The position numbers were made by a program, and so were the translations under genes. A stretch of 64,000 nucleotides of DNA, from assembly GCA_036630325.1 (NCBI GenBank), contig CP142735.1:62001-126000 (forward strand), given 5' to 3'. Within the stretch, counting starts at the first letter, position 1. Each line of letters starts with the position of its first letter. Origin of the DNA: Vairimorpha necatrix (Eukaryota). The notes under the pieces were generated by a model. That model was not told the origin of the DNA and searched no databases. It saw only the letters and a list, made by a program, of their open reading frames with translations. Positions 9,150 through 55,675 of the stretch are shown here, in pieces.

Positions 9150-12100
9150 TGTGGACTACTGGTTGCCCAGCAGTCCGAGAAGAGTTAGTTTTACTTAATG
9201 TTTTATTTAACTTCTTCATACCCTTATGGGTATGATTTTCTTTTATGTTTGTGGGAGGGAAAATAAAGTATTTCCCTCCAAAACATAATTGGAGAGAAGA
9301 AGGAGAGTACCTACAGCATGGTATTCTCTGGTCTCCAGGGCAATCTTAGGACCACTGGAGATCTGTCCCTTGACACTCCCCCCTTCCTTATCGGCTCCCA
9401 AGTTTCCTTTTCAAAATCCATTTTTTTTAAATCTTTCTGATTCACCGAGAAAACAACATTATTTGGACTAGTTATTTCATAAGCACCCTTTTTTCCTATC
9501 TTAGTTATAGTGTAAAGTCCTTCAAATTTACTGTCCAGTTTATTTTTTATATTGATTGGAGGTTTTCTCCTCAGTACTATATCCCCTACTTTAAAAGCCT
9601 GTTCTTTCACATTTCCCATTTCTCTTTCCCGTGCTTCTCTCTCTGCTTGAAGCATTATTTCTCGAGTTTGGTTTAATCTTTCAAATATCAGTAGATTAGG
9701 TTCCATGGGTATTATCTCTTGGTTAGTCTGATCCCCTTCTTGTGGCTTACGTCCATACAATAATTCAAATGGTGAAAATCCCGTTTTCTTCCTTGGAGAA
9801 ATACGATAAGCATATAGTGCTAGTTCTAAATATTCGTCCCATTCTTTCCATCTTTCATTAGTTATTTTGGCCAGTTTAGCTACCAGCGATTGATTGGTTC
9901 TTTCAACTGTACCATTACATTGAGGATGGTAAGACGAAGTAAAAGATTTTCGCACATGAAAAATTCTACATAATTCTTTTACTGTAGAGTTCAAAAATTC
10001 GAGTCCCCTATCTGAAAGTAGTTCGTTCGGTGGACCATGTCTGCATATGATCTCTTCAAAAATAAATTTGGCTACTGTTTTGGCTGTTTTATTCTTCACG
10101 GCCTTAGCTTCACACCATCTAGTTATGTAATCGGTAGCTACAATTATATAAATCTTTCCATTTTCTGACTTAGGCAATGGGCCTACTATATCGATACCAA
10201 CTAGAGAAAATGGTTCTTTCAGTTGAATCCTATGATACTCTTTGGGTATTCTTTTAGGATTAAATTTCAGACATACTTGGCAATTTTCTATTTCTTTTCT
10301 TATATCTGCGTAAATACCTTTCCATTGCGCTTTCTGTAGGATTAGCGTGTATGTTGGAAATATACTCCCATGCCCACATTCTTCGTGACACTTTAGAATA
10401 AGTTCTTTTTTTTCTGAAACGGATAGTTCATCAACCTGGTCCTTATTTACTGTATGGACAAATCTGGTCAATCCATCTGCAATAACATTATCTTTTCCTT
10501 TAATATACTCAATTTCGTAAGAGTAATTTTCTAAAGTTAGAATCCATCTCATTAATCTCCCTGTACTCTCTTTAAAACTCAGTAGCCATTTAAGCGCTTG
10601 GTGATCTGTACGGATTATAAATGTATTGGTAAGATATATTCTGAATTGTGTTATGCTCCATATTATAGCAAGACACTCTTTTTCGGTTACTGTATAAATG
10701 ATTTCTGCCGTATTTAATTTCCTTGATATAAAATATACTGGCATTTCTATTCCCTCGTATTCCTGCATTAGTGTTGCTCCTATGTATAAATTAGATGCAT
10801 CTGTATATAAAATAAACTTTCTGTTAAAATCTGGTAGTTTAAGGACTGGAGAGCTCGTGATAATCTCTTTTATTTTGGTTACACTTTGTTTAGCACTTTC
10901 AGAAAACTCAAATTTTCCTTTTTTCAAGCATTCATAAATCGGGGCCATTATATCTGTGTAGTTTTTTATAAATTTCCTAAAGTAATTAATAAATCCGATA
11001 AAAGCCCTAGTTTCTTTGAGAGTCTTCGGAACTTTAAGTCGTAAACATTTGGTTTGTTGTTCTAATGGTATGCTTATTCCATCTTTGTTTATCATATAAC
11101 CTAAGAATTTTACTGAATTTTTAGCAATCTTGCATTTTTTTTGATTGACTTTCAGTTTTAATTTGTCTAATATTTTAAACACTGCTTCCGTGTGTTCTAG
11201 ATGTTCTTTAACCGATCTTGAATATATCATTATATCATCTAGGTATACTTGTACAAATTTATGTAAATGGGGAGATAGTATTGAATTCATTATCTTTTGA
11301 AAAGTAAAGGGCGCATTTACAAGCCCGAATGGCATCCTAACCCACTGAAAAGTCCCTGATCTGCTTCTAAAAGCTGTAAGATATCTATCTTTTTGTCGGA
11401 TTCTTATTTGATGATATCCCGATTCTAAATCTAATACAGTGAATATAGACGCTCCTTGTAGCTCTTCAATAGTTTCTTCTATAAGAGGTATTGGGTAAAT
11501 CATTTTCTTAGTGATTTTGTTCAGTCTCCTATAATCAATGCAAAATCTTAGATCGCCGTCCGGTTTCTTGACTAATACAACTGGGGATGTATAATCTGAA
11601 TCGCTGCTTTCGATAACTCCTTTCTTCAAAAACTCCTGAACTTTTTCTTCTATGATCATATTTTGGTCCGGAGATCTTCTATATTGAATATTTTTTATTT
11701 CAGAGACGTCATTTGTTATTTCTATAGCATGTTCAATGTCTAGACTTGATTGTTGATCTCCATTTAAAAAAATTTCTGAATACTCCGTAATAAGTTTATT
11801 GAACTTTTCCTTTTCAACTTGTAGTAATGTTTCATCTCCGACATCAGTTATAAGTGTTTTATTATTAACTGAAGTTGTTGTACATACTGATTTCGTTATA
11901 ACAGCGCTTTCCATTTTATCAAGCATCTTTAACAAGTTTAGTGAAACGGCATCTCCAATACCTATAATGAGGTCTTCTGGCAAGTTCTCAACTACATAAG
12001 CCTCCACTCTGTTGCTCTTCTTGTTTTTAGGTTTTTTAATCATGAATTCCACCTTTTTTTCTGATCTTACACTTCCTCCTACTCCTTCAATGTTTAGACT

Positions 12101-13153
12101 GACATTTGTTGTTTCTAGGCCCAGGCGTTGGACAGTGTTTTTACTAATCAGGTTTATTTGGGCACCTGTGTCGATTAGTGCGGAAATAATTTCTTTTTCG
12201 GAATATAGTTTAATTCTTGGTCGCATGTCTTTAGTTTTCGATTTATCCACTCTACCTACCTTCAGGAGTAATGCAGTATTTCCTTCTTCTGCCTTCTTTG
12301 TGAAAGTTTTAATCACTTTCTTTTCCTGCAAGGGTGCTTCGTTACGTGGAATTTTGGGCCACTTGGTTTTCTTTTTTAGATAATTATTCATAAAAGTTTC
12401 CTTTTCTTCTACCAGATCTAATAACTCTATCCAGTCCTTGGTGTCTAATATAGATTCCTTCAACGTATCTGGGGAGTTTCTTCCTATCGCAATCTTTGAT
12501 CGGTTAAAGTATTCAGTGCTTTTCTTTGCACAACTCTTGAGGTCGTAAGCGTAACTCATGATATCGCTTTCCTTTGGACCTTGTACGTACAAGTGCATAA
12601 ACTTATCAGTTTTATCTTCGAGTAGTTTTTCTTTTATGTATTTCTTATGAAATTGGGATTTGAATGTATCGAAATCTGTTATCTCCTCACCTTCGAAGGC
12701 CTTATACCATCGCAACGCTTTTCCTTTTAGTTTGGACTTTACGATATCCAGCGTCTTGGCTTGCTCATAGATATCTTCTACTTCTCTAAACTGGGAGAGA
12801 AAGTCTTCGGCTTTACTTAGATCTTCGCCGGTAAATTCTGTCCATCTGTTTTGTAGACTCAGTTTTTTCACATAGGAACAGATTTCATCGATTTCATCTT
12901 TCATATCCTCTTCACCGTTACCACCATTGTGGACTACTGGTTGCCCAGCAGTCCGAGAAGAGTTAGTTTTACTTAATGTTTTATTTAACTTCTTCATACC
13001 CTTATGGGTATGATTTTCTTTTATGTTTGTGGGAGGGAAAATAAAGTATTTCCCTCCAAAACATAATTGGAGAGAAGAAGGAGAGTACCTACAGCATGGT
13101 ATTCTCTGGTCTCCAGGGCAATCTTAGGACCACTGGAGATCTGTCCCTTGACA
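9150..13153 (-). mobile_element. Intact Ty3/Gypsy LTR retrotransposon (family 1), 4,004 bp
   Basis: Two 226-bp LTRs, TG..CA (9150-9375 and 12928-13153), identical by eye. 5-bp TSD TATGC (9145-9149 / 13154-13158). PBS TGGTGGTAACGGTG next to the 5' LTR (resembles a tRNA-Leu 3' end). PPT AAGGAAGGGGGGAG at 9376-9389. Confidence 0.97.
9311..12997 (-). CDS. Single gag-pol polyprotein (capsid, aspartic protease, RT, RNase H, integrase)
   Basis: 1228 aa uninterrupted. Motifs: ALIDTGA; YLDD; YTDAS..EKE..TDH; HHCC (CHEECGH..CQVC); DIVGP..SDRG..NGTVER. PR-RT-RH-INT order is Ty3/Gypsy. No CCHC knuckle is visible in Gag. Confidence 0.96.
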   Translation of the reverse strand: MKKLNKTLSKTNSSRTAGQPVVHNGGNGEEDMKDEIDEICSYVKKLSLQNRWTEFTGEDLSKAEDFLSQFREVEDIYEQAKTLDIVKSKLKGKALRWYKAFEGEEITDFDTFKSQFHKKYIKEKLLEDKTDKFMHLYVQGPKESDIMSYAYDLKSCAKKSTEYFNRSKIAIGRNSPDTLKESILDTKDWIELLDLVEEKETFMNNYLKKKTKWPKIPRNEAPLQEKKVIKTFTKKAEEGNTALLLKVGRVDKSKTKDMRPRIKLYSEKEIISALIDTGAQINLISKNTVQRLGLETTNVSLNIEGVGGSVRSEKKVEFMIKKPKNKKSNRVEAYVVENLPEDLIIGIGDAVSLNLLKMLDKMESAVITKSVCTTTSVNNKTLITDVGDETLLQVEKEKFNKLITEYSEIFLNGDQQSSLDIEHAIEITNDVSEIKNIQYRRSPDQNMIIEEKVQEFLKKGVIESSDSDYTSPVVLVKKPDGDLRFCIDYRRLNKITKKMIYPIPLIEETIEELQGASIFTVLDLESGYHQIRIRQKDRYLTAFRSRSGTFQWVRMPFGLVNAPFTFQKIMNSILSPHLHKFVQVYLDDIMIYSRSVKEHLEHTEAVFKILDKLKLKVNQKKCKIAKNSVKFLGYMINKDGISIPLEQQTKCLRLKVPKTLKETRAFIGFINYFRKFIKNYTDIMAPIYECLKKGKFEFSESAKQSVTKIKEIITSSPVLKLPDFNRKFILYTDASNLYIGATLMQEYEGIEMPVYFISRKLNTAEIIYTVTEKECLAIIWSITQFRIYLTNTFIIRTDHQALKWLLSFKESTGRLMRWILTLENYSYEIEYIKGKDNVIADGLTRFVHTVNKDQVDELSVSEKKELILKCHEECGHGSIFPTYTLILQKAQWKGIYADIRKEIENCQVCLKFNPKRIPKEYHRIQLKEPFSLVGIDIVGPLPKSENGKIYIIVATDYITRWCEAKAVKNKTAKTVAKFIFEEIICRHGPPNELLSDRGLEFLNSTVKELCRIFHVRKSFTSSYHPQCNGTVERTNQSLVAKLAKITNERWKEWDEYLELALYAYRISPRKKTGFSPFELLYGRKPQEGDQTNQEIIPMEPNLLIFERLNQTREIMLQAEREAREREMGNVKEQAFKVGDIVLRRKPPINIKNKLDSKFEGLYTITKIGKKGAYEITSPNNVVFSVNQKDLKKMDFEKETWEPIRKGGVSRDRSPVVLRLPWRPENTML

Positions 13154-19911: not shown

Positions 19912-20662
19912 TGTAGGAAGAGTGACACATGTCAAATCCAACTGTGTCCATCTTAAAAGATTTGACATGTTTGTCTTTAAATATTTTATAATAAATAAAC
20001 CCATGTTTTCACTCCAACAATTTGGCGACAAGGACAAGAACTTTCTCATTTTCAGAAATGAAGAGAAAGACGACCCTCAGCAGTTCTTGGAGGACTTGCT
20101 AGAGGTAGGGAGGTTGCAGGAGTACAGCGAGGGTAAGCTTATACTCCTTTGTTAAATGTCTCTAAAAGAAGAAGCAAGAGACTAGATTAATTCCCAGCCA
20201 ATGGGACTTGGGTTTGATAAATTGATTGAAGGATTTAAAGGAAGATTTTTTAGTAATATACAATGGAAAATATCCATTGATAAACTTTCTTTGTTAAGAT
20301 ATAATGGGGGTTCTTTATTAAATTATCTGGATAAGATGGCGGGATTGGCACGAAAAGGCAATGTCCCGGAGAGTGTTTTGATAGCATTTGCATTAAAAGG
20401 ATTACCAAATGACTTAGCAAATATTGTGTTAATGAACAACAAGGATTCTTTATCATGGGAGTACATCTACAGAGCTTTGAGTAACGTGAAGTGCGAAAAT
20501 GTACCAAGATATACAGAAGTAGCGCGAAGTGAGCCGATGGAGGTAGATGCGATTAGGGGGAAGGTATACCCAAAAGAGAATCGGAAAACGGAGAAGAAGT
20601 GTAAAATTAGGTGTTTTATTTGCGGCCGACAAGGCCGTATAACTGCTCATGTAGATTTAATG

Positions 20663-22960
20663 GGTGTCCGGAGAATTTACCGACCATAATCACCGACAGC
20701 AATTCACCAAAAATCAATTCACCGACCAACAAATTCACCGACAACAAATTCACCGAAAAATTGAAATATGTATTTTTATGGGTATATTTATGATTTACAT
20801 ATTTAATTTAATTTTTTTTTGTATGGATCATAAATATTGTGCAATATAGCATTTGAATATTACTATATTTATATCACTAAATAAATTAAAAAATAGAAAA
20901 AGTATCAAAATGTTCATAAACATAAAAAACTAATTAAAAATAATAGAAAACATAAAAATCTAATAATTTATTATTAAAATGTCAGATTATGGGCAATGGC
21001 ACGAATATATTTTATAATATTTTCTCGATTAAAATTGGACACTATATTTAGAAGTCTCGTTCTACAATCGCGATATTTTTTTTTAGACGTAGGAGCATTA
21101 AAACCAGACAAAAATTGTTCTATTCGAACTTCATTTAGAGATTGTTCCTTTTTTAAGCAATTGATAAACTTCCAAATATTCAGGTGAGTACCACCAGCTT
21201 GCGACTCGAACCCACGATGCCAACCTTCGACCGAGTTGTTAGTCCTCGGTAGACCATCTATTGTTCTGGAGTACATATTCCATATCTCTGATGCAAATTT
21301 CGGGGCTCGACGCTGTCTTCGGCTTGAGCGGCCAATCTAAGTATCTTCAAAATAATCTAAGACGGGCAGAGCTTGTATGGGCAGTATTCTGTCAGACAAT
21401 TCTTCAAAAACTTCAACAACAAAATTGGAAGGTACAAATGCTATGGCGGCCAGCGATCTTATTTGCAGTGCAAATTCTGGATCTGTATTGTACAGTAGTT
21501 TGAGTCCATGATTTTGAACGGCTCGAAAAATGCACATTGAGAAATGAAAAAAGCATCCTTTTACACTTGCACCAGGAAACTGTACTGAAATAGCATTCAT
21601 CATGGCTTTTTCAAAATCTACAGTTATGGATTGCGGATTTAATGATGGTTCCAACTCTTATAAAGTGCAAAGAAATTTAGAATACGTTTGCTCTAATTTA
21701 TTTGGCAATAAAGCGAAGACCAAGGGAATAGAAGCACTTTGTTTTAGCCCGTGAATTGTGTACAGTTGATGAAATAATAATGGTACGGTTTTAAAGGTGC
21801 CATCTGCGTACCAGTGTTGACTATCTGCCAAAAGCCGTAAATTGTGAGTCGTCGAAAAAATTAAAATTCTGTTTTCATCTGGTCCAGAATCATATAGCAA
21901 AAAGGGTTCCCCTCTTGTAGTTTTTTTGAATTCGTCTGTGAATGTAATTTCTTGCCGCGAATTTGGGAGTGCGGGGCTAGTTTCTGCAATTTGTCGAATA
22001 TACCAAACGCTACGCTTCATATTGTCAATCGATGGCAATTTTGGAGCTGCAGCATGGTCCATAGAGATAAACAATCTGATATAATAGATTGTGGCTCTTC
22101 TCTAGAGCTTTTTGCCAAGGCTCGAACATTAGCATATATTTTATCGGCTTTGACTTTAGCAGCATCTCCCGAATGGTTGTGTTCGCCAAACACTTTAATT
22201 TCCCCATTAGACATTGTAATCACTCTACACTTGCACTTGTACTTTTGATAGTATTCACATTTCCAATATATTTTGGATAGTTCCCAAACATCTTTTTCCT
22301 TAAAGAAAAGATGACCTTCTAAAATTAATTTTTTCTTCCCCTTTTCTGAGAGTAAATATTCGATCTGCATTATTGAAATTAGGGGTTCAGAATTAAAATG
22401 TTAAAATATTTAAAAAGAGTTGTGCCATTTTAAGTAAAGTATAGACCTTTCTTCGCAAACCTGCGCCTTACTAATTGTGCCTAGGATACCTTCATTTCAC
22501 TTTGGTATCGAATTGGATGAGACTTTATTACAATATGTCTAGATAGAACATTACACCCCAATGCAATGTAAAAACATTAATGTTACAAGTATACTAGTAC
22601 ATTATATGTCATAATTTTGAGGAATTGTTGTCGCGTCGTTTCATAATCTTTCTTTTCAGATTAATTAATAATGAACATTTTGATACTTTTTCTATTTTTT
22701 AATTTATTTAGTGATATAAATATAGTAATATTCAAATGCTATATTGCACAATATTTATGATCCATACAAAAAAAAATTTAAATTAAATATGTATATCATA
22801 AATATACCCATAAAAAATACATATTTCAATTTTTCGGTGAATTTGTTGTCGGTGAATTTGTTTTCGGTGAATTTGTTGTCGGTGAATTTGTTGTCGGTGA
22901 ATTTGTTGTCGGTAAATTTGTTGGTCGGTGAATTGATGGTCGGTGAATTTTCCTAGAACC
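20663..22960 (-). mobile_element. Mutator-like (MULE) DNA transposon, 2,298 bp, inserted just after the host gag zinc knuckle
   Basis: 9-bp TSD GATTTAATG (20654-20662 / 22961-22969). ~250-290-bp TIRs with 15-bp subterminal repeats (AAATTCACCGACAAC). Removing it restores CRFNGLRKNVR (the other copy reads CKFNSFHKNVR). Confidence 0.95.
20974..22370 (-). pseudogene. FLYWCH-MULE transposase, one frameshift and two nonsense codons
   Basis: FLYWCH motif: GHLF..IYWKC..CKCR..HNH. MULE motifs: WYADGTFK, VDFEKAM, GCFFHF, RTNNSVEGWH. Stops at 21658 and 21337 are in one frame; the frame shifts near 22070. Confidence 0.9.
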
Positions 22961-25900
22961 GATTTAATGGTCTCCGGAAGAATGTAAGAGAAATAGAGAA
23001 AGTGGAAGTAGATAAAGAATGTGATTCCAATAAAATTATTTTTAACTATTTCCTTTCAAGATTTAATGACACTAGAGTAACACTTAAGGCCGCATCATTG
23101 AATAATTCTGAAGCAAAATTTAAAGTACTGATCGATACAGGAGCAGATTTAAATCTGATTAGACCAGAATTGTTACTAAATAAAACTATTGTTAGTCCGT
23201 CAAAACAACAACTTAGAGCAGCGAACGGGTCAAAGATAAAAATTATTGGGGAAACGGTAGCTAAGATTAAAATAGAAGGGATGATTTTTGAAGATAATTT
23301 TATTATTACAAGAGATATTACAATTCCATGCATCATTTGACATGCGTTACTGGATAAATACAAAATAAATTTAAGATCTGGGGATAATAGAATGGAACTT
23401 GAATCTGGGTTAATGGCAAAGGGTAAAGCCATAGGTTACTACAAGATCATCACCAAAGAGGATAAACCAATACTTACACAGTTATACAAGTTAGGTGGCG
23501 CAAAAGAGGACATAGCCTCTAAAATAGTAAAAGAATACCTGAGCTTGGGAATCATAAGACCAAGTGAAAGTGCATGGAGAAGTCCAATTATTATTGTTCC
23601 AAAAAAGAATGGCTCACATGTTATGTGTGGACTATAGAAGGCTGAATGATGCGACGATTAAAGACGCGTACCCAATGCCAAATGTAGAAGAATTTATAAA
23701 TGCATTAGAAGGTGCTAGTTACTTTACAAAATTGAATGTAGAATTGGGATATCATCAAATTGATATGGCGCCTTGTGATATAGAAAAGACAGCCCTCGCC
23801 TGTAGAGAAGGATTATTTGAATTTACTTTAATGCCATTTGGGCTTGTCAATGGACCAGCTACATTTCAACGTGTCATGAATAATATCTTAAAAGAATTCT
23901 TATTTGAATTTGTTGTAGTATATATGGATGATATACTAATTTATAGTAAATCGGAAGAAGACCATAAGAGAGATGTTAAAAGAGTATTAGAAAGCTTAAA
24001 TTCTTAGGACTTAGGTTGGATAAAGAGAAGTGCGAATTTAATAAGACTCACTTAAAAATTTTAGGTCATGTAATATCTAAGGAGGGAATAAGTGTGGATG
24101 TAGAAAGAGTTAAAAGCATTCAAGAATTACCAGTTCCTAAAAGTAAGAAGAAATTACAATCTTTATTGGGGCTATACAACTATTGCTCCAAATTTATTAA
24201 AAACAGTCACAAAGTGGTTAGTCCACTTTTTGATATAATAAGACTCAAGAATGAGGAAGCGGATAACTTCTGGAAAAATTCAGAGAATGATAAAAAATAC
24301 TGCGAGGCAATAGAAGAGGGAAAACAGGCAATGAAGAGAACGGCCTTATTGACGATACCAAATTTAATAGAAAAATTTATTTTGACCACAGATGCATCGA
24401 ATGAGGGATGCGGGGCCACATTGGCACAAATGTGTGACGGGAAAGAAAAGATTATTTCTTATTACGGCTCTTTACACTCCAAGACAGAAAAAAACTATTC
24501 TACTACTGAGCAAGAATTGCTAGCAGTTATAAAGTCGATTCAATACTTCAGAGAATATTTATTATTAGGGAAATTTACACTAAAAACGGATCATCAGGCT
24601 TTGAAATACTTGTTTAAGTCTAGAAATGTAAAAGCTAGGTTGGCTAGATGGTCATTACTACTACAAGAATATGATTTCGATATTGAATATATTATAGGAC
24701 CATCAAACTATACGGATCACCTGAGCAGAGAATTTAAAAAACCAGAGGAGAACGTTTTTGAAATAAATTTAATCCAAAAGAAAATAGTTAAAAAAGAAAG
24801 GACAATAGTGCTTTTGAAGTTTTATCATGATTTATTAGGGCATGGATCAAAACAGAATATGAAATATAATATTGGGCGAAAATTTACTTGGAAGAATATG
24901 AGTAGAGACATAGAAAATTACGTAGAAAATTGTGAAATATGTCAAAAAGAAAAACCACAGAGGAAATTTAGTGACATTGTACCCTTAGTAACGAAGACAA
25001 TAGGCGAAATTTGGGAAGTAGACATAGTAGGACCTTTGAGAGAAAGCGAGCAAGGATATAGATTCTTATTGACAATGATTGACCACTTTTCGAAAGTTGC
25101 AGAGGTGGTGCCGATTTATACCAAAGACATGAACACGGTCATTTATTTGGTAGATAAACATATAGTCAGGAAGTATGGTATTCCAAAAGCCATTTTATCT
25201 GATAATGGTAAAGAATTCAAAAATAATATCTGTGAGGAATATGCGAAGACCAAAAAATTTATCTGAAAATATGGTTCTACTTATAAACCTACAACCACGG
25301 GGCTTGTTGAGAGGTTTAACAGGACAATAGCCATAAAATTAAGGAAGGTTACAGAATTTGGGAAATTTGATTGGGCAAAATAATTAAAGCAGTCAGAGCC
25401 TATATGCAATCATATCATAGGGCTATAGGGTGTACACCAATAGAACTCTTAACAGGAATAGTTCCAAATAAGTTAGATATACAGGAAGGAATGCATTTAA
25501 CAAAAGATAAGAAAGAGTTTCAGATGCAAGCTACCAAGAACTTATAAGTTTACAGACGAGAATACGACACGAGTAATTAAACTAATTTCGGGGATAAGGA
25601 TGCCATTAAGGTGGGAGATAGAGTTTGGTATTATTTAATTCTACCGTTCAGAGGAAAACTTGAGCCAAAATGGGAAGAAAAAGGAACGGTTGTAGACCTG
25701 CGATTTAATTCATTAAAAGTGTTACTAGATAATAAAAAAAGTTATGGCAAGTAAAATCACGTTAAGGTTTTAAAGGTAGGGTAGTGTAGGAAGTGTAACA
25801 CATGTTAAATATGGCAATGTTGGCGCTACTTAAAAATTCGCACCCCCTAAAAAATACGTTCACTGAAAAAAATTATTTGGTATAAAATGAGATAAAATTA

Positions 25901-26952
25901 AATTTTAAAGGATTTTTTTTCCGGGGGTGCGAATTTTTAAGTAATGGTATTTTGAACGTGAAATTTTTTTTATTGTATCTATCCCTTATAATGAACAGGA
26001 TGATGGACGAAATGCTTCGATTCAATCCATACAATCCTATTTTCACTGATTATAACAGGATAATCGACTACGGATTGAAGAACAACTTGTTTTATTCTTG
26101 TATTCCCTGTACTAATGATCAGTGCAAAGGAATTGTGTTTATTCAAAACATATCTTTGTTTTCTCAAGGAAAGGGGTACAAATGTAGCAAAAAAATTTGC
26201 AACGAAGATGTTCATTAAATAAAGTTCTAAATTTGAATCTTTAGATTTTGAATTTAAAAAAATTCTTCGTTGCATTTATTGTTGGTGTTTGTCATATACT
26301 AATTTTCAGGCCATCGACATGTGTGAAACTTCTGAACCAACATATATTTCTGTAAAAGAAATAATAATGGAAACAATTTCCAAGTCTTCTAAGTTGTTAC
26401 AACGATAGGTGGAGTTGGTCAGAGGATACAAATAGACGAAACAGCTATTTGTAATGGAATTATAGTATCGAATCCGTCTAGTCGATTGGATTCTGAACCT
26501 GGAATTCAGTGGATAATAGGAGGTGTATTGGAAGGAAATTGTAGAGAGTTTTTTGTGTAACTAATACCCAATAGAAAATGGGAAACGATTTTACTAATAT
26601 TAAAAAAATATGTAAAAGTAAGCACTGATATAGTAACTGATGGTTATCCATCCTATCCACGTGCTATAAGTAAATTTGGTTCTCACCATAGTGTGGTAAA
26701 TCACTTTTTGTGATTTTGTAATGAGGAAGGACAAAATACAAATTATGTAGAAAATATGTGGTCGCATCTTAAGCATGATTATAGAAATCGTGGAGGAATT
26801 AATAAAATAAGAATTAAATGTTGGTTAGATGAGTTTAAATGGAAAAAAGAAAATATAGAATATTCAAAACCATTTACAATCAAATTAGCCTTCGTAAAAA
26901 TATTTGATATTTTTTCTATGTTAAAGTAATTAAATTTTTGAACTAAATAATA

Positions 26953-28065
26953 GGTGCATCTTTAGTAACGTGCCGGAAGGTAACACCCCCCCCCTTACAG
27001 ACAAAAATTTAACAAAATTTTGAAAAAAAATAAGAAAACGATATAAAAATGCTTATTTGATTCAGTAGTTTAGATAAAAGATCAACAAAACCCTTATAGA
27101 AGTCTCCCATATCATCTTCTCGAAGCATAAATTTCCTATACATAAATTCATCGAGCCATGTATCTATCTCCGACCGTTTTACTCCATGTTCTTTGGTCAT
27201 TTCAGACTTAAGTTGAGACCATACGTTCTCAATATTATTTGTATGAATAACATCAGGAGATAAAAAACCTATAGAAAGACTAACAACTTGATAACTTAGA
27301 CATAAATTTTCTGCCACCCCGGAATAACTAGGATGACCATCGCTATGTAAAACCGAACCTACACAAATTCTTCCCTCTAGAGCAGCAGTAAGGCACTCAA
27401 TGGTTCTATTCTCTACCCTCGTAATGTAGAAGTTTGAAGGATTTTGAGCATCTATTATGCCCAAAATCCAAAAGTGTCCCTTATAAAGTCGTCCGAAGAG
27501 GTAGGAGATCTTATTTTACCCCTTCTGCATATAACAGACTCATCTACTTGAACGACTTGCCCGGGTCCTCCGATTATAATTCTATTCTTTAGCAAATCTT
27601 TATAGATCTTTCTGAGGCTGCTTTTTACGGCAGAGATTGTAGCTGTTGAAACGCCCAATCTTGCCATCAACTGAAAGTAAGAATATCTGCATAATATTCC
27701 AAATACAAGGTCACAGAATGTATGAAGAGGAACCTTGCAGCCTTTATTCACAGCCAACCGCGCACTGCATTTGTAGTTCGAACAGCGATATGCTACTCTT
27801 GTAACGATTTCTTCCTTGACAGGACCCAATCTCATGTTACATCCACATTTGGAACATGATTTTTGCTCCTTCAGCACTTCTAAGTCAATTAAAGCTTCTA
27901 AACAAGTGTCAACGTTATAAAAAAGCCTTTGTATATTCACAAGTTTAATTTTTGTGCTTTTCTTTAGTAACGTGCCGGAGTTTTCTAAATCGATGTTGTC
28001 CATTTTAGGGGTAAAAAAATATTTTTTAAAAAAACAAAATCCCGGCACGTTACTAAAGATGCACC
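26953..28065 (-). mobile_element. Merlin DNA transposon (family M3), 1,113 bp, nested in M2
   Basis: 24-bp TIR GGTGCATCTTTAGTAACGTGCCGG. 8-bp TSD AAATAATA (26945-26952 / 28066-28073). Confidence 0.95.
27009..28003 (-). pseudogene. Merlin M3 transposase, frameshift near 27460-27480
   Basis: ATG at 28003 after CCCCTAAA. Motifs: CSKC..YRCSNYKC; IIGGPGQVVQVDES; LHSDGHPSY; HTNNIENVWSQLK. Confidence 0.9.
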
Positions 28066-28279
28066 AAATAATATGTTATAACTGTTTTTTTAAATATTTT
28101 AACTTTTGTAAATTCATATTTTCATAAAAATATTGTTTTAAATATAATTTTAAGGGTTAAAAATATTATTTTATATAAATTTAATTGGTCATTGTAATTT
28201 TTTTAGGGGGTGCGAATTTTTAAGTAGCGCCGCAATGTTTATTTTGAGATATTTGACATGTTGTTCTTTAAATATTTTA

Positions 28280-31200
28280 TGTTAACCATTTATTTATTAA
28301 GGGTTCTAAACCCTACATCCCCCCTCCAGACGGGTAGTCTCTCCATCTTCTAAACAACTCTTCCTTATCTCTTTCAAATCATAATGCCTCTTTTTAACAA
28401 TTTTACCATCCAGTAGTCTCACAATATATGAATCATTTTCACTTATAGCTACGATCCTTCCGCGACCCGTGAATCTTCCCTTGTCTGTTTTCGCACGTGT
28501 ACCTAAATTTTCTCTCCTAGCGATTCTTACCTCTTGGCCTACTGTAAATGTCTCTCTGTGTCTTCTCTTGAACCGACCAGCATATTTTCCATTTTCATCA
28601 TTTTCAATTATAACTTCAGCAGTTTGATCTCTCCACGCTTCCATCGGCGTACATTTTATTGCTGTATGTAGTGTATTATTATATCCTTTGATTGCTCTTT
28701 CTATCTTTTCAGAAATATTCCCATCATTTTGCTTTACCAATGTCTCTCTTATAGTTCTGATGCATCTCTCGATTCTACCATTACTCCTATGAGCTTCTAA
28801 GCCCACTTTCCTATGTTTAATATCATTAATACTACACCATTCTTTAAATCTATTACTTACAAACTCTTTTCCGTTGTCTGTCACATATTCCTCTGGAAAT
28901 CCATCTTCCCTTATCCACTTTTGTAATACCTCTATAACTTCACTACTCTCTTTACATCTCAAATTCGAACCCCACAACCTTCTAGTAAAGTAATCAATAC
29001 CCAGTAACACATACCTATTCTCTCCACCTATGTCCATTAAATCCAACGCCACTTTCTCCAATTTCTTTCTAGTTACTACGAAATCACATCCTCCTGTGTT
29101 TTTCCTATTGTTAATCCCACATATTTCACAATTCTTAATTACCTTATTAATATGATCTTTCATACCAGGCCAATACCATCTTTGTTTAATGTTATAATAA
29201 GTGCCTTTGACACCTCTATGGTTTAACTCCTCATGTACTCTTGTTATTTCATGTTCTCTACTATCTAGGCTCAATATCTCTTTCACCTCACCTGTGGAAA
29301 ATTCCCAATACTGTTTACCGTCCTTTTCTTTAATATGTTTCTGCTTTTTTCCCAAAATTTGTATTTCGATCACTTCTTTTCTCTTGTTGTCCTTTTCTTT
29401 TTGTTCATCCGAAACTTCTACCTGATCATACTGCCTGCTTAACGCATCTGCATCTGTCATCAACTCCCCTTTCACATACTCTATTGTAAAGTCAAACTCT
29501 TGTATCTGTTCTACCCATCTGTTTATTCTGTTATTATTGAAGTATGGCTTATTTCTGATCTCTGCTAATGCTTTATGATCCGTCATCAAATGAAATTTCC
29601 TTCCTCTCAAATCACTTTCAAACTTCTTTATTCCAAAAAACACCGCCAACATCTCCTTCTCACTTATCGTATATCTTCGCTCGGTAGGAGTCAACATTTT
29701 CGATGCCCATTGTATCGGAATCCACTCACCCTCTTTATTTTCTTGTAATAGAATTGCTCCGATCCCCGTATCACACGCATCAGTTCTTACTCTAAATAGC
29801 TTTTTTCCGTCCGGAATCTTCAACTTTTTCATATCTCTCAAGCCTTGCTTCATATCCTCAAAAGCTCTTTCCATATCCTCCGTCCAATTCCACTTAACAT
29901 CTTTCTTTAAAGCCTCAGTAAGCCTTACTGTTCTATACGCATAGTTGGGAATAAAGTCTCTAAACCAACCAGTTAGTCCTAAAAATCTTCTTAATTCTCT
30001 AACATTTTCAGGTTTTCTATATTCCAATGTCTCCTGCTTTTTAATCTCATTCGGTCTCATTCCTCCCCATTAATTGTTACTCCCAGCAACATCACCTCAT
30101 CTTTTTTGTATTGTATCTTTGTTTGGTTTATTCTCAACCCACACTCTTTAAACTTTTTAATTACCCTCTCTAGTAACTCGTCATGCACTCTTACGTCTTT
30201 ACCATGAATAACTATATCATCCATATATACTTCCACGCCTTTACCTCTGAATTCATCTAAAACTCTGTTCATTACTCTCTGCATTATATGAGGCGAATTC
30301 TTAAACCCCATAACCATACTATTCCATTCGTATACTCGACCATTCACTTCAAATGCTGTTTTGTGCTTATGGTGCTCCTCAATCTCAATATGATAAAACC
30401 CTTCTTTTAAGTCGATAACCGTAAATACTTTTGACCCCTGTGTGGCTCTCATAATATCCTTAATTAACGGTAGTGAGTACGGGTCCTTGTCAACCAAATC
30501 GTTTAACGCCATCAAATTGCTTACCAATCTTACGTCCCCATTTGGTTTTTCAAGTGCTCTTATTGGACTCCTCCACTCACTTTTGGAACGTCTTATAACC
30601 CCTCTATTTTCCAACTTATTCAAGTACTCCTCAAATTTCACCCTAAGGTAGTATGGCACATTCTGCCCTCTTTTCACAACCTTTTCACCTTGCTTAGTAT
30701 TTATTGGACACTTCTCTCCTGTGAGATATTTTATCTTTTCTTCTGATTCTTTAAAAACTTCCGGATACTTTTCAATTAAATTTTCTAACTTATTTACTGT
30801 TTTACATCTTTTCCCTTCATTGTTGATAATTGGTTCTTTCTGTAAAACTTGTTCCTTTTTAATTTTATATTTTTCCCTACCAGCTACACTTTCATGACAT
30901 TCTCTAGCGTAATGCCCTTCTTTCTTACATATAAAACATTTTGTAGTTTCTCTGATTTCTCTTCTTTTCCTATACATCCTAAGATTTTCTTTTCTTTCTT
31001 CCCTAAACTCTTTCAACACTTTATCCATAATCTCTTTAATCATTTCTTGTCTTTCTTCTGACTCTCTCTCAAATTCTGCTCCTTTTTGTAAGCCTTTATA
31101 AATTTCCTCCCAACTGCTCCTTCCGTCACAAAAATTTTCAAAAATATAATCCTGCAAGTTCGCAGATGCCAAATCCATAACATCTTTCCACTCAACTTTC

Positions 31201-31353
31201 TCAACTTTCAATATTAACTTTAGTCTCTTATCTATCCTAATTGCCTCTTTCTCTAATGTTCTAGCCTCTTGACTACGGGACTCTCTTGTTTCCCTGTTCA
31301 TCCTTGTGTTCGCCATGTTAACCATTTATTTATTAAGGGTTCTAAACCCTACA
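28280..31353 (-). mobile_element. Miniature Ty3/Gypsy (family 3), 3,074 bp, 38-bp LTRs, no protease
   Basis: Identical direct repeats TGTTAACCATTTATTTATTAAGGGTTCTAAACCCTACA at 28280-28317 and 31316-31353. 5-bp TSD TTTTA (28275-28279 / 31354-31358). PBS TGGCGAAC abuts the 5' LTR and PPT GGAGGGGGGA abuts the 3' LTR. Confidence 0.95.
28306..31325 (-). CDS. gag(CCHC)-RT-RNaseH-integrase polyprotein, single 1-nt frameshift at ~30060
   Basis: ORF 30057-31325 has CFICKKEGHYAREC and YMDD. ORF 28306-30060 has TDAC..EKE..TDH, HEELNH..CEIC and ALDLMD..TDNGKEF..NGRIER. One extra G in GGGGAGGA gives a continuous INGEGMRPNE. Confidence 0.88.
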
Positions 31354-31497
31354 TTTTATAATAAATAAACCCATGTTTTCATCCCAACAATTAGAATCAT
31401 TTGATATGATTTATATACATTTAAAAAAAAATATATCTATATTATTATTCTTACTCGGTTATGTAACCCCTAAATATCTTGCCATGTTTTTGTATAG

Positions 31498-50300: not shown

Positions 50301-51569
50301 TTACTCTTTATGATTATGGGGGATATTTCTATACTCAAAATCTCTACCGTCGTCTTGTTTTTTATTCCAGTCTCGGGACTGACCGGGATTTACATTTATA
50401 TCTCTATTATTTTTATCTCTTTGATGATCTCTATTACTTTGGTCTCTAGTATTTTGGTCTCTAGTATTTTGGTATATGTTGCGGGAACTGTCTCTGTTTG
50501 TATAATTATCGCGAGGGTTGTCTCTACTAGGATTATTATCTCTGGTCTGGTATCTATCTTTTTGTATGTAATTATCTCTGGATTGATAATTATCTCTAGG
50601 CTGGAAATTATCACGGGGTTGATAATTTCTTGATTGTTTATCTCTATTTTGATAAGTGTCTCTGGGTTGGTAAGTATCTCTAGGTTGATAATCTTTTTTG
50701 TAATTATCTCTATTTTGGTAATTGTCTCTAGGCTGATAATTTCTATCTTTTTGTACGTAGTTTTCTCTATTTTGGTAAGTATCTCTAGATTGGTAGTCTT
50801 TTTTGTAGTTGTCTCTATTTTGGAAGTTGTCTCTTGGTTGGTAAGTATCTTTTTGTTGATAATTTCTATCTTTTTGTATGTAGTTGTCTTTTTGATATAT
50901 ATTTCTATCTTTCTGTATGTAGTTGTCTTTTTGTTGATAGTTTCTGTCTTTTTGGTAAATATTTCTATCTTTTGATTCAATATTCGTCTGATTATAATAA
51001 TTTCTATCTTTTGATTCAATAATCTCCCGTGGTTGATTTATAGTCTTCTGATCTTCTTTTTTATTTATATTCGCTTCACTTTTATATGCATACTCTTTTA
51101 TAAAACTAGGCGCATTCTCCACATTAATATCTCCTATCATCCCATCTTCTTCTCCTTCTTGTATTTCATATTTCTCATCTATAGGATCTCTTTCTCTCAA
51201 ATCCATTATCTTCTTCTCTACATACTCAATATCAAATGGTAAATTAAAACACTCAGGATTCTTTCTCAAATCTATACATCTTTTAGTACTGGACTTTACA
51301 TTTCCTTTCTTACACATTTCATTTAATTTACTATATAAAATCGTATAATTCTCTACCCACATATCATCTAATATCCTTCTAGTATCACCAACCATAAGAC
51401 TATATCTAACTTCTTCTTGACTGATAACATTAAGATCTAATGAATCAATATAAGAGAAAATCCATGTGGGTGGATCTAAGAGAGAAGAAATAAGGAAATG
51501 GGGCTTGCTGCATGAAGAACCATATCGACATCTTCCTTGTTGGAAAAATGGACAGGGGTCAAGAACCAT
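50301..51569 (-). CDS. CCCH zinc-finger protein, NUP42/NUPL2(hCG1)/Amo1-like, with RDNYQ repeat tract
   Basis: N-terminal CPFFQQGRCRYGSSCSKPH, then WIFSY and ISQEEVR, and C-terminal FEYRNIP. About 25 (R/K)D(N/T/R)YQ-type repeats. The ORF is clear; the family call is by recalled motifs. Confidence 0.7.
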   Translation of the reverse strand: MVLDPCPFFQQGRCRYGSSCSKPHFLISSLLDPPTWIFSYIDSLDLNVISQEEVRYSLMVGDTRRILDDMWVENYTILYSKLNEMCKKGNVKSSTKRCIDLRKNPECFNLPFDIEYVEKKIMDLRERDPIDEKYEIQEGEEDGMIGDINVENAPSFIKEYAYKSEANINKKEDQKTINQPREIIESKDRNYYNQTNIESKDRNIYQKDRNYQQKDNYIQKDRNIYQKDNYIQKDRNYQQKDTYQPRDNFQNRDNYKKDYQSRDTYQNRENYVQKDRNYQPRDNYQNRDNYKKDYQPRDTYQPRDTYQNRDKQSRNYQPRDNFQPRDNYQSRDNYIQKDRYQTRDNNPSRDNPRDNYTNRDSSRNIYQNTRDQNTRDQSNRDHQRDKNNRDINVNPGQSRDWNKKQDDGRDFEYRNIPHNHKE

Positions 51570-51977
51570 ATGAGGGATAATTTAGAGGAGAAAAAAATGG
51601 AAAATTATTTTATGCAGAAAATGCGTATTTATATTTTTAGAGGGGAGTTTGTTTGTTTAAACAAACAAAGTGGGAAAAGAAAAAAATATATATAAAAATA
51701 TAAAACTAGTACTAAACATGTATGATTTACACTTCAAGATAAAAAATTATTTATTAGTATATAAAATATAAAACTATATATTTTTCCTAATTTAGTTGCT
51801 ACAAGTATAACCTAGAATGATTTTACAGAAGAAATATCTATTACAATTGATATCTTATAAAAAAGATGTAAATGTTTAAATTGTGTAACATAAAACAAGT
51901 TAAAAGAGATAGTACGGTCCCCTTAATGCACATCATAACGTGTAATTATTGCATATGATAAATCTTTTAGTACAAAT

Positions 51978-54900: not shown

Positions 54901-55675
54901 GCTCTAACATTCTTATGGAAGCTATTGAATTTGCATTGTGAAACTATATGGCCCCTTTTCCCGCAAATAAAACACTTAATTTTTCCATTTTTTTCTGTTT
55001 TCTCATTATTGTTCCACCAGACCTTTTCTTTTATCGCATCTACCTCCCTAGATTCTCCTCGAGCCACTTCTGTATATCTTTGGACATTCGCTGACTTCAT
55101 ATTACTCAGAGCTCTGTAAATGTACCTCCACGATAAGGTATCTTTATTATTTACTAGCACCAAATTTGCCAAATCCTTGGGTAGTCCTTTTAACGCAAAG
55201 GCAATTAATATACTCTCCGGGACATTACCTTTGCGTGCTAGTCCCGCCATCTTATCCAAATAATTTAAAATCGAGCCTCCATGGTATACTAACGCCGAAA
55301 GTTTATCAATGCATATTTTTAACTGCATTTTACTAAAAAATCTTTCTTTAAATAATTCAATTAGCTTATCAAATCTAAGTCCTACTGGCAGTGAATTAAT
55401 CCAGTCTCTCGCTTCATCCTTTAGAGACATTTTAAACAGGAGCATCAGTTTCCCCTCGCTGTACTCCAGCAACCTCCCCACCTCTAAAATGTCCTCCACG
55501 AACTGCTGTGGGTCATCATCCTCTTCATTTCTAAATATCAACTCTTTCTTGTCGTTCTCGCCAAATTGTTGGAATGAAAACATGGGTTTATTTATTATAA
55601 AATATTTAAGAAACAACATGTCAAATATATCAAAACACAGACACAATATATTTGACATATGTGGCACTTCCTACA
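51978..55675 (-). mobile_element. Young Ty3/Gypsy (family 2), 3,698 bp
   Basis: 109-bp LTRs at 51978-52086 and 55567-55675, identical by eye. TSD CAAAT (51973-51977 / 55676-55680). PBS TGGCGAG; PPT AAAGGAGGGGTAG. Confidence 0.97.
52087..55583 (-). CDS. gag-pol polyprotein with one 1-nt frameshift at ~54328
   Basis: ATG at 55583 (CCCATG) inside the 5' LTR. Motifs: CFICGKRGHIVSQC, LIDTGA, YMDD, TTDAS, HDLLGH..CEVC, TDNGKEF. GGATAATA lacks one A relative to LGIIRPS in the sister copy. Confidence 0.9.

What the first reader, a model, noticed from the sequence alone, without database searches (positions are those of the whole stretch)
28280..31353. Ty3/Gypsy retrotransposon with LTRs of only 38 bp
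Seen: two identical 38-bp direct repeats with TG..CA ends, a 5-bp TSD (TTTTA), a TGG-initiated PBS flush with one repeat and a PPT flush with the other. They enclose RT, RNase H and integrase with catalytic residues intact. The boundaries are fixed independently, because excising the element plus one TSD restores the host LTR (AAATATTTTATAATAAATAAACCCATG). On the sense strand the LTR reads TGTAGGGTTTAGAACCCTTAATAAATAAATGGTTAACA. It packs the stop codon (TAG), a 6-bp hairpin (AGGGTT/AACCCT), a CCC start motif, overlapping AATAAA signals and an in-frame ATG. Established: LTRs are normally about 100 bp to several kb, and common LTR finders default to a ~100-bp minimum, so such a family would be missed. 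Inference: identical LTRs plus a clean TSD mean it transposed recently in this form. U3-R-U5, promoter, poly(A) signal and integrase att sites would then all work within 38 nt.
Basis: partly seen in the sequence, partly recalled or inferred. Interest (0 to 1): 0.92.

Follow-up and report, generated by a model that had tools for sequence, protein, structure and literature searches.

The report
Gypsy retrotransposon with 38-bp LTRs
A 3.07-kb Ty3/gypsy-type retrotransposon of a Nosema-like microsporidian really does have terminal repeats of only 38 bp, and this is a trait of a whole protease-less lineage, which shows how small a working LTR may get.

Summary
An exact 38-bp TG..CA direct repeat (28280-28317, 31316-31353) with a 5-bp TSD (TTTTA) bounds a 3,074-bp minus-strand element. 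Its order is zinc-knuckle Gag, RT, RNase H, integrase.

The boundaries are fixed independently. The host site is a fragment of the LTR of another gypsy element, and three uninterrupted copies of that LTR lie in the same window. Empty-site contigs also occur in two public runs.

The short LTR is not a one-off deletion:
- A metagenome relative at about 50% aa identity (L003) has 39-bp LTRs, a 5-bp TSD, a PBS and a PPT.
- A 68% relative (L041) has a homologous 38-nt 3' LTR.
- Contigs of two runs break inside the 38-mer.
- Relatives' protein ends encode the ...ACA|TGG and GGGGA|TGT junctions.

Related families have LTRs of 58, 75, 109, about 123, 226 and about 268 bp, so this is the extreme of a series.

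This copy has a one-base frameshift in RT, which the majority form in two runs lacks. The clade has no detectable protease. The hairpin is no better than chance.

Where transcripts start and end is inferred only, because no RNA data were available. I found no description in the searchable literature, but Xu 2006 and the supplements could not be read.

The parts
28242..28279 (+). Left half of the host site: a fragment of the ~109-bp LTR of the other gypsy element (51973-55676). Its last 5 nt (28275-28279, TTTTA) are one TSD copy.
   Evidence: 94% match running across the junction to three uninterrupted LTR copies in the window
28280..28317 (-). 3' LTR, 38 bp (sense TGTAGGG...TTAACA). It holds the polyprotein stop codon TAG at 28308-28306.
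28318..28327 (-). Polypurine tract GGAGGGGGGA, flush with the 3' LTR and lying inside the ORF (encodes E-G-G). The context CCGTCT..GGGGA is conserved in L041, L003 and L004.
28306..30069 (-). Downstream reading frame, 587 aa. It holds the end of RT, RNase H (about 29494-29886), the integrase zinc finger (about 29104-29259) and the integrase core (about 28810-29034).
30057..30069 (-). One-base frameshift inside RT that splits the polyprotein in this copy. Contigs of X1 (depth 60.6 of 60.6) and X2 (61 of 61) carry one more base at 30061.
30057..31325 (-). Upstream reading frame, 422 aa. It holds a helical Gag-like N-terminus, a CCHC zinc knuckle (about 30897-30941) and RT (about 30072-30551). 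There is no protease between the knuckle and RT. Its first ATG lies inside the 5' LTR.
31302..31315 (-). Putative primer-binding site TGGCGAACACAAGG, flush with the 5' LTR and inside the ORF. The tRNA is not identified.
   Evidence: (no tRNA gene in the window)
31316..31353 (-). 5' LTR, 38 bp, identical to the 3' LTR. It holds ACCCT, two overlapping AATAAA and the first in-frame ATG (31325-31323). Its last A starts the junction ATG.
31354..31392 (+). Second TSD copy (31354-31358, TTTTA) and the right half of the host LTR fragment.

Best explanation
This is a copy of a real, recently mobile lineage of Ty3/gypsy-type LTR retrotransposons in Nosema/Vairimorpha-like microsporidia. The lineage is miniaturised to about 3.07-3.16 kb, and the ~38-bp LTR is its normal state.

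Shown:
- The LTRs are 38-39 bp.
- A single ORF of about 1,000 aa (Gag with one zinc knuckle, RT, RNase H, integrase; no protease) starts inside the 5' LTR or at the ATG formed by ...ACA|TGG.
- The ORF reads through the PBS and the PPT and stops inside the 3' LTR.
- The element inserts with 5-bp duplications of AT-rich targets.
- This copy is inserted antisense into a fragment of another element's LTR. It carries a private one-base frameshift, so it probably no longer encodes its own enzymes.

Inferred mechanism:
1. RNA polymerase II starts a few nucleotides downstream of the purine-CCC-pyrimidine motif (LTR positions 14-18). This is how microsporidian host genes behave, with 5' UTRs of a few nucleotides.
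2. U3 would then be about 18-27 nt. It would carry the att end, the stop codon, the CCC motif and part or all of AATAAA.
3. R, with essentially no U5, would be only the last ~10-20 nt up to the PBS.
4. AAUAAA in the 3' LTR directs cleavage at or just beyond the LTR end.
5. A very short minus-strand strong-stop DNA transfers through this short R. The PPT primes the plus strand and the 38-bp LTRs are regenerated.
6. The integrase uses the TG..CA ends.

My odds are about 0.9 for the structural part, meaning a real family that transposes with ~38-bp LTRs. They are about 0.5 for the placement of U3 and R.
For: 1. Structure and independent boundaries in the window.

2. Empty-site contigs in two runs. 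X1 has a loose end at 28280 reading AATAAATAAACCCATGT, which is the right flank after the TSD. X2 has a loose end before 31353 that resembles the left flank.

3. The family form. X1 contigs at depth 65.3 (28289-29953) and 60.6 (29924-31333) join PPT to LTR positions 1-29 and LTR positions 21-38 to the PBS. X2 contigs cover LTR positions 1-18 and 10-38. One X1 contig (199 nt) has the full LTR plus 148 nt that are unlike the window's flank.

4. Independent relatives:
- L003: 39-bp LTRs with 1 mismatch in 39, TSD TTATA, PBS TGGCACCCAGTC, PPT AAGGCGGGGA, element 3,163 bp.
- L041: GGAGGAGGGGA followed by a 38-nt homologue of the LTR, then unrelated sequence.

5. Protein-end signatures:
- 16 of 23 aligned proteins have M followed by A or G within the first 7 residues. 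3 more have M-V, and 4 show neither.
- All 11 with an upstream extension have N, D, H or Y (NAC/NAT codons) before that M. This is what ...ACA|TGG predicts.
- 10 of the 24 proteins whose C-termini were read, counted by eye, end in a glycine-rich stretch followed by C, DV or ML, which encodes GGGGA|TGT.

6. A graded series of short LTRs in related families: 58 and 75 bp, about 123 and about 268 bp, and about 109 and 226 bp in the window. All six LTRs compared have A/G-CCC with its first C 19-34 nt before the LTR end, and AATAAA nearby.

7. Published microsporidian signals, passages read. A CCC motif lies within 15 nt upstream of start codons in N. ceranae and E. cuniculi (PMC2685015). 5' UTRs are under 7 nt, AAUAAA lies near stop codons, and one 35-bp intergenic space serves two divergent genes (PMC2803860).

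8. Clade. The 25 rows of about 900-1,020 aa without a protease motif are one side of a branch (SH-aLRT 100). The nearest protease-bearing relative with a known LTR is the 58-bp one (L075).
Against: - No transcript data: no RNA holder was listed, so TSS, poly(A) site and R are unmapped.
- AATAAA lies downstream of CCC in this LTR and in L041, but upstream of it in L003, L075 and the ~109-bp LTR. The signal layout is therefore not uniform.
[quoted passage not shown] There is no tRNA gene in the window and no genome is held.
- Only two elements (window, L003) show both LTRs. L041 and L004 show one end only.
- L075 and L077 have no matching TSDs. The contigs may be chimeric assemblies of several copies.
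- Among the contig rows that were listed, none bridges the two junctions of this particular insertion (125 rows were not shown).
- This copy is frameshifted.
- With no protease and no recognisable capsid domain, self-sufficiency of the lineage is unproven.
Confidence: 0.8

Rival explanations
1. The lineage is real and has ~38-bp LTRs, but it is not self-sufficient. Having lost protease and most of Gag, it would be packaged, or its polyprotein processed, by co-resident protease-bearing gypsy elements such as those at 9150-13153 and 51973-55676. It would be a semi-autonomous parasite of other elements.
For: - No aspartic-protease family in 0 of 11 clade members at E <= 1, apart from one non-significant Peptidase_A17 hit at E 0.068.
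- The same search finds RVP and Retrotrans_gag in both neighbouring elements.
- The Gag part is only about 125 aa of helices plus one zinc knuckle.
- Protease-bearing elements with 100% identical LTRs lie in the same window.
Against: - The clade keeps long intact ORFs of about 1,000 aa in many assemblies, so RT, RNase H and integrase are under selection.
- Its RT/IN is only 25-40% identical to the neighbours, so specific recognition in trans is not obvious.
- Nothing tested here speaks for an interaction.
Confidence: 0.2
2. The repeats serve only as R. Transcription comes from outside the element, as read-through in a pervasively transcribed compact genome, so the 38-mer contains no promoter.
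For: Transcription overrun and multi-gene transcripts are described for microsporidia (PMC2803860, passages read). 38 nt is very little room for a promoter.
Against: - A strong-stop DNA copied from read-through RNA would end in flank sequence with no homology at the 3' end of the RNA, which blocks the first strand transfer (inference from the standard LTR replication scheme).
- All six LTRs compared carry the host-type CCC motif 19-34 nt before the LTR end, next to the ORF start.
- Mobility would depend on the insertion site.
Confidence: 0.08
3. One-off artefact: either a deletion derivative of a family with ordinary long LTRs, or an assembly collapse of longer LTRs.
For: Only one copy is in the window. 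No whole genome was available to count copies.
Against: - L003 has 39-bp LTRs in an independent metagenome assembly.
- L041 has a homologous 38-nt LTR in a third assembly.
- High-depth contigs in X1 and X2 show the same PPT|LTR and LTR|PBS joints.
- The TSD and the empty sites are exact.
Confidence: 0.03

Closest known systems
Microsporidian Ty3/gypsy elements (Nbr elements of Nosema bombycis, Xu et al. 2006; the microsporidia-specific groups of Parisot et al. 2014, PMC4202319)
   Same: The host group and superfamily are the same. The nearest named proteins are from Nosema granulosis, Vairimorpha necatrix, V. apis and Enteropsectra breve. The RT-RNase H-integrase order and the CCHC Gag are shared.
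   Different: A secondary source (PMC2474625, passage read) says nearly all Nbr elements have five domains including protease, and this clade has none. No LTR lengths are given in the main texts I could read.
The 58-bp-LTR element L075 (G001 contig C261). In the tree it is the nearest protease-bearing relative whose LTR length is known.
   Same: It has a TGT..ACA LTR with AATAAATAACCCTTAA, a start codon at the ACA|TGG junction and a stop codon inside the 3' LTR.
   Different: Its LTR is 58 bp and its ORF is 1,095 aa with a DTG protease motif. The element is 3,364 bp. No TSD is visible in that contig.
FRetro129 / SMART of grasses (Gao et al. 2012, PMC3281118, passages read)
   Same: It has very short LTRs (85 bp), TGT..ACA ends and a 5-bp TSD. 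[quoted passage not shown] They had to lower the LTR-Finder minimum LTR length to 50 bp to find it.
   Different: It is 292 bp, non-coding and non-autonomous. The present LTR is less than half as long, and it sits on an element that encodes its own RT, RNase H and integrase.
Tf1/Tf2 of fission yeast (the name carried by several Nosema granulosis hits)
   Same: Both have a single gag-pol ORF without a frameshift. This is recalled, not tested.
   Different: Tf1 has a protease, a chromodomain integrase, LTRs of a few hundred bp and self-priming (recalled). Here there is no protease and no chromodomain hit. No complement of the PBS is seen in the LTR by eye.
Retroviruses with very short R (recalled: R of about 15 nt in MMTV; about 12 nt of R homology still allows strand transfer in MLV vectors)
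   Same: If R here is about 10-20 nt, it is in the range recalled as just sufficient for minus-strand transfer.
   Different: Those viruses have U3 regions of hundreds of nt. Here U3 would be about 20-25 nt.

Membership tests
LTR retrotransposon (order LTR) | Terminal direct repeats with TG..CA ends | tested here: met
   Exact 38-nt repeats, TGT..ACA
LTR retrotransposon (order LTR) | Target-site duplication of 4-6 bp | tested here: met
   TTTTA on both sides. The empty site is seen in three host-LTR copies in the window and in contigs of X1 and X2.
LTR retrotransposon (order LTR) | PBS next to the 5' LTR, complementary to a tRNA 3' end | tested here: inconclusive
   TGG-initiated TGGCGAACACAAGG is flush with the LTR. 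No tRNA gene is in the window and no genome is held, so complementarity is untested.
LTR retrotransposon (order LTR) | Polypurine tract next to the 3' LTR | tested here: met
   GGAGGGGGGA is flush with the LTR. The context is conserved in L041, L003 and L004.
LTR retrotransposon (order LTR) | LTR length in the usual range (about 100 bp to several kb; smallest found in my reading 85 bp, PMC3281118) | tested here: not met
   38 bp here, and 39 bp in L003
Ty3/gypsy (Metaviridae) | Domain order RT - RNase H - integrase, with an RVT_1-type RT | tested here: met
   Pfam RVT_1 1.3e-31 (RVT_2 only 0.0031), then RT_RNaseH, Integrase_H2C2 and rve, in that order
Ty3/gypsy (Metaviridae) | Aspartic protease between Gag and RT | tested here: not met
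   No protease family in the window ORFs. None in 11 of 11 clade members at E <= 1, except one Peptidase_A17 hit at E 0.068. Only about 40-60 aa lie between the zinc knuckle and RT. The positive control found RVP in both neighbouring elements.
Ty3/gypsy (Metaviridae) | Gag with a capsid (Retrotrans_gag / Ty3-Arc type) domain and a CCHC nucleocapsid | tested here: inconclusive
   CCHC is present (E 0.00067, 20.1 bits against Pfam's cut-off of 20.8; 6 of 11 clade members hit zf-CCHC). There is no Retrotrans_gag hit. The model of residues 1-176 (pLDDT 81.6) gives Arc C-lobe at Z 5.5 and Ty3 capsid NTD at Z 4.7 over residues about 20-90. This is within the noise range for helical proteins. The Atlas lead scored 0.86 to Retrotrans_gag clusters.
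Chromoviruses (Ty3/gypsy with chromo-integrase) | Chromodomain at the integrase C-terminus | tested here: not met
   No chromo family among the Pfam hits of the window ORF or the 11 clade members
TRIM / SMART non-autonomous miniature LTR elements | No coding capacity | tested here: not met
   The element encodes Gag-RT-RH-IN. Relatives have intact ORFs of about 1,000 aa.
DIRS/Ngaro-type protease-less retroelements | Tyrosine recombinase instead of a DDE integrase | tested here: not met
   The rve DDE integrase with an HHCC finger is present

The most novel reading that the evidence does not exclude
This is the smallest self-sufficient LTR retrotransposon lineage yet seen. It is about 3.1 kb and is one ORF from LTR to LTR, with no protease and a Gag cut down to roughly one capsid-lobe-sized helical unit plus a zinc knuckle. 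Its LTRs of 38-39 bp would hold a ~20-25-nt U3 promoter and an R of only ~10-20 nt. Retrotransposition would then need neither proteolytic maturation nor an LTR larger than two integrase att sites plus a microsporidian core promoter.
Probability: 0.45. Interest if true: 0.88.

Novelty: new variant of a known kind. Interest (0 to 1): 0.76.

Why it matters
1. It sets a new lower bound for a functional LTR. The 38-39 bp found here compare with 85 bp for the smallest I could find in print, and that one sits on a non-coding element. Promoter, R, poly(A) signal and both att sites would have to fit in less than two turns of nucleosomal linker. This makes the minimal cis-requirements of LTR retrotransposition directly testable.

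2. The clade lacks a protease and most of Gag yet keeps long intact ORFs. That raises the question whether an LTR element can work as an uncleaved polyprotein.

3. There is a practical side. I recall that LTR finders ask for at least about 100 bp of LTR by default (one search shows the value had to be lowered to 50 bp in one study). Such elements would therefore be missed or annotated as host 'polyprotein' genes. The same ORFs also turn up in bacterial MAGs as contamination.

4. It shows genome compaction acting on selfish elements themselves. Related families form a graded series of 268, 226, 123, 109, 75, 58 and 38 bp.

Tried and rejected
- No whole genome is held for the window, so copies and solo LTRs could not be counted genome-wide. 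There are no further copies or solo LTRs of the 38-mer in the window.
- No RNA holder was listed among the sequencing runs, so expression and transcript ends could not be examined.
- The contigs listed do not bridge this insertion's own junctions. k=31 contigs break in the LTR and 125 rows were not shown. Depths (60-65 over the element in X1 against 0.9-4 over the right flank) cannot be read as copy number.
- The viral-contig scan found no relative.
- More distant loci were uninformative. I took 20 of the loci at or below 39% identity through the flanking-repeat script, and L004 with them, which also gave nothing. None of the 21 gave a convincing flanking repeat, but the search window was only 900 nt and Gag was unmatched.
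- L001/L002 lack the 3' end, and their 5' junction is unclear. L004 has only the 3' LTR start.
- The LTR of L041 occurs only once in its source genome G001.
- No tRNA gene is in the window, so the PBS is unassigned.
- Hairpin: not better than shuffles. A 5-bp hairpin sits at the same place in L041 with one one-sided change, but there is none in L003 or L075.
- Foldseek against the PDB with the Gag model matched only the zinc knuckle, weakly (E about 2).
- Earlier-findings look-ups returned nothing.
- Contig lengths of the Logan hits (3,030-3,160 bp for ORFs of about 1,000 aa) at first looked like proof of short LTRs. I rejected that argument, because de Bruijn contigs break in any repeated LTR. 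They show only that almost the whole internal region is ORF.
I found nothing on LTRs under 50 bp or on protease-less gypsy elements in microsporidia. Xu et al. 2006 is not held, and supplements were closed.
Full report
**What is in the window**

On the minus strand, 28280-31353 is a 3,074-bp element bounded by an exact 38-nt direct repeat (28280-28317 and 31316-31353).
- At up to 3 mismatches the 38-mer occurs only at these two places in the 64 kb. None of 100 shuffles gave two matches.
- The repeat has TGT..ACA ends and is flanked by TTTTA on both sides (28275-28279, 31354-31358).
- In sense orientation the 5' repeat is followed directly by TGGCGAACACAAGG.
- The 3' repeat is preceded directly by GGAGGGGGGA.

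Two overlapping minus-strand frames fill the interior.
- 31325-30057 (422 aa) holds a helical N-terminus, one CCHC zinc knuckle and RT with YMDD.
- 30069-28306 (587 aa) holds RNase H, the HHCC finger and the DDE integrase core.
- The first ATG lies inside the 5' LTR (positions 29-31). A second in-frame ATG is formed by the last A of the LTR and the TG of the PBS.
- The ORF reads through the PPT (which encodes E-G-G) and stops at TAG, positions 10-12 of the 3' LTR.

**Independent boundaries**

The flanks belong to a fragment of the LTR of another gypsy-like element of the window (51973-55676).
- I joined the flanks with one TSD. The joined sequence matches the two LTRs of that element and a third partial copy (19960-20022) at 94% straight across the junction.
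- Contigs of two public runs also show the uninterrupted site. X1 has a loose end at 28280 that continues as the right flank. X2 has a loose end before 31353 that resembles the left flank.

**Is 38 bp the family state?**

Yes, by several independent lines.

1. Locus L003 comes from a metagenome and is about 50% identical in protein, with a decayed ORF. It has 39-nt LTRs (TGTTGTATGTGAATAAATAACCCTTAATATTATATGACA, 1 mismatch). It also has its own 5-bp TSD (TTATA), a flush PBS (TGGCACCCAGTC) and a flush PPT (AAGGCGGGGA). Its total length is 3,163 bp.

2. L041 is a 3,024-bp contig binned into a bacterial MAG, and its protein is 68% identical. It ends with GGAGGAGGGGA, then a 38-nt sequence alignable with the window's LTR along its whole length, then unrelated AT-rich sequence. 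Only this one LTR is on the contig.

3. In runs X1 and X2 the element is covered by high-depth contigs (60-65 in X1).
- These join the PPT to LTR positions 1-29 and LTR positions 21-38 (X2: 10-38) to the PBS. They end inside the 38-mer, as expected for a k=31 graph if the 38-mer is the repeat node.
- One X1 contig carries the complete LTR next to 148 nt that are unlike the window's flank.
- The window copy differs from the X1 contigs at 8 places in about 3,045 nt.

4. The protein ends of relatives encode the junctions.
- Of 23 aligned proteins, 16 have M followed by A or G within the first 7 residues. 3 more have M-V, and 4 show neither.
- In all 11 that start further upstream, the residue before this M is N, D, H or Y. 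These are NAC/NAT codons, as ...ACA|TGG demands.
- 10 of the 24 relatives' C-termini read, counted by eye, end in ..RLEGG..GGG or ..EG followed by C, DV or ML. These are the three reading frames of GGGGA|TGT.
- These rows are related by descent, so the counts are a signature and not a statistic.

I do not count the many Logan contigs of about 3.03-3.16 kb with ORFs of about 1,000 aa as proof of short LTRs. Such contigs break in any repeated LTR.

**A graded series**

Other gypsy-like families show short LTRs of many sizes.
- 226 bp in the window (9150-13153) and about 109 bp (a 115-nt repeat at 51973-55676). Both pairs are 100% identical.
- 58, 75, about 123 and about 268 bp in contigs of the MAG-labelled genome G001.

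Features shared by the six LTRs compared:
- A/G-CCC with its first C 19-34 nt before the LTR end.
- AATAAA nearby, upstream of CCC in three and downstream in three.

In the five of these whose elements carry an ORF on both sides (L041 shows the 3' end only), that ORF begins in the 5' LTR or at the junction ATG and ends in the 3' LTR.

A quick maximum-likelihood tree used 40 rows and 965 columns.
- The 25 rows of about 900-1,020 aa without a protease motif fall on one side of a branch (SH-aLRT 100).
- P0049, P0064 and then the 58-bp-LTR, protease-bearing L075 come next outside.
- The root is weakly supported and some outgroup branches are long.

**No protease, reduced Gag**

- Pfam finds no aspartic protease and no Retrotrans_gag domain in the window frames.
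- It finds none in any of 11 clade members at E <= 1. One Peptidase_A17 hit at E 0.068 is not significant.
- The same search finds RVP and Retrotrans_gag in both neighbouring elements.
- Only about 40-60 residues separate the zinc knuckle from the start of RT.
- AlphaFold models (pLDDT 84.5 and 81.6) give helices 14-37, 46-52, 55-65 and a long helix 72-127 before the knuckle.
- Structure searches give only middling matches. The Arc C-lobe (Z 5.5) and the Ty3 capsid NTD (Z 4.7) over residues about 20-90 are among them, within the noise range for helical proteins.
- A capsid-lobe remnant is possible but not shown.

**This copy is broken**

- Relatives have one continuous ORF across '...LLGVTINGx-x--P-EIKKNEALEY'. 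The window changes frame there (30057-30069).
- Contigs of X1 (depth 60.6 of 60.6) and X2 (61 of 61) have one more base at 30061 and two substitutions next to it.
- By frame arithmetic, one added base puts both parts in one frame of about 1,009 aa.
- Whether the window's state is a real mutation or an assembly error cannot be told here.

**How it most likely works**

The architecture, the TSD, the multi-assembly occurrence and the conservation of PPT context and CCC motif are shown. The rest is inferred.
- Microsporidian genes have a CCC motif within 15 nt of the ATG (PMC2685015, passages read).
- Their 5' UTRs are under 7 nt, and AAUAAA lies near the stop codon (PMC2803860, passages read).
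- I therefore place the transcription start a few nt downstream of ACCCT (positions 14-18). This gives U3 of about 18-27 nt and an R of about 10-20 nt running to the PBS. Cleavage would be directed by the 3' LTR's AAUAAA at or just beyond the LTR end.
- If the start lies beyond position 20-24, the 5' copy of the signal is not fully transcribed, which would avoid premature polyadenylation.
- Strand transfer through such a short R is, from memory, within the known range.
78 of 200 shuffles fold as well, and it is absent in L003 and L075.

**Comparison and novelty**

The element works like, and is related to, microsporidian Ty3/gypsy elements. It fails two customary features, the LTR length and the protease.
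- The shortest LTR I could find in print is 85 bp, in the non-coding FRetro129 (PMC3281118, passages read).
- My ten literature searches found nothing on LTRs under 50 bp or on protease-less gypsy elements in microsporidia.
- A secondary source says 'nearly all' N. bombycis elements have five domains (PMC2474625), which leaves room for an earlier sighting.
- The primary paper (Xu 2006) and the supplementary consensus sequences of PMC4202319 could not be read.
- I therefore rate it as a new variant of a known kind. Interest is high for transposon biology and practical for annotation.

Noticed in passing
window 51973-55676 (minus strand): A full-length gypsy-like element of about 3.7 kb with Retrotrans_gag, CCHC, RVP, RT, RH and IN. 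Its 115-nt terminal repeats are 100% identical, and the true LTR is about 109 bp (TGTAGG..CCAACA). Its Gag ATG follows CCC inside the LTR. The 5 nt after the 5' LTR (ATT plus the TG of the PBS) happen to equal the apparent TSD ATTTG, which makes the boundary ambiguous.
   Followed up: partly
window 9150-13153 (minus strand): Another full-length gypsy-like element of about 4.0 kb. It has 226-bp LTRs that are 100% identical and one 1,270-aa frame (stop to stop) reaching into both LTRs. It has a protease.
   Followed up: partly
window 19960-20060: A third, partial copy of the ~109-bp LTR, followed by TGGCGACAAGGACAAG (PBS and Gag start). It is a remnant of, or a second copy of, the family at 51973-55676. 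Loose ends in X1 at 31392 read the same continuation.
   Followed up: no
window 26941-28077: 36-nt inverted repeats (86% complementary, 1,065 nt apart) enclose a 206-aa minus-strand frame (27455-28075) with cysteine-rich motifs. It has no Pfam hit. It may be a DNA-transposon remnant, and it abuts the host LTR fragment.
   Followed up: partly
window 23500-25330 (plus strand): A fourth gypsy-like RT-RH-IN stretch, 28-35% identical to the element, without detectable LTRs. It is probably a fragment.
   Followed up: no
window 22816-22966 and 50555-50980: Tandem arrays. One has a 15-nt period (TTGTCGGTGAATTTG). The other is a more complex array with sub-periods of 18, 39 and 105 nt.
   Followed up: no
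G001 (genome behind L041), contigs C81, C138, C222, C232, C260, C261, C316, C340, C348, C351, C373, C375 and others: A species-representative genome labelled as a bacterial MAG gives 43 matches to this integrase/RNase H protein on many short contigs. Several are complete eukaryote-type LTR elements. This looks like contamination of the bin by a microsporidian-like eukaryote.
   Followed up: partly
L001 and L002 (metagenome contigs): A relative of the element sits inside the RNase H coding region of another retroelement, and one open frame runs across the junction. The 5' LTR could not be delimited.
   Followed up: partly
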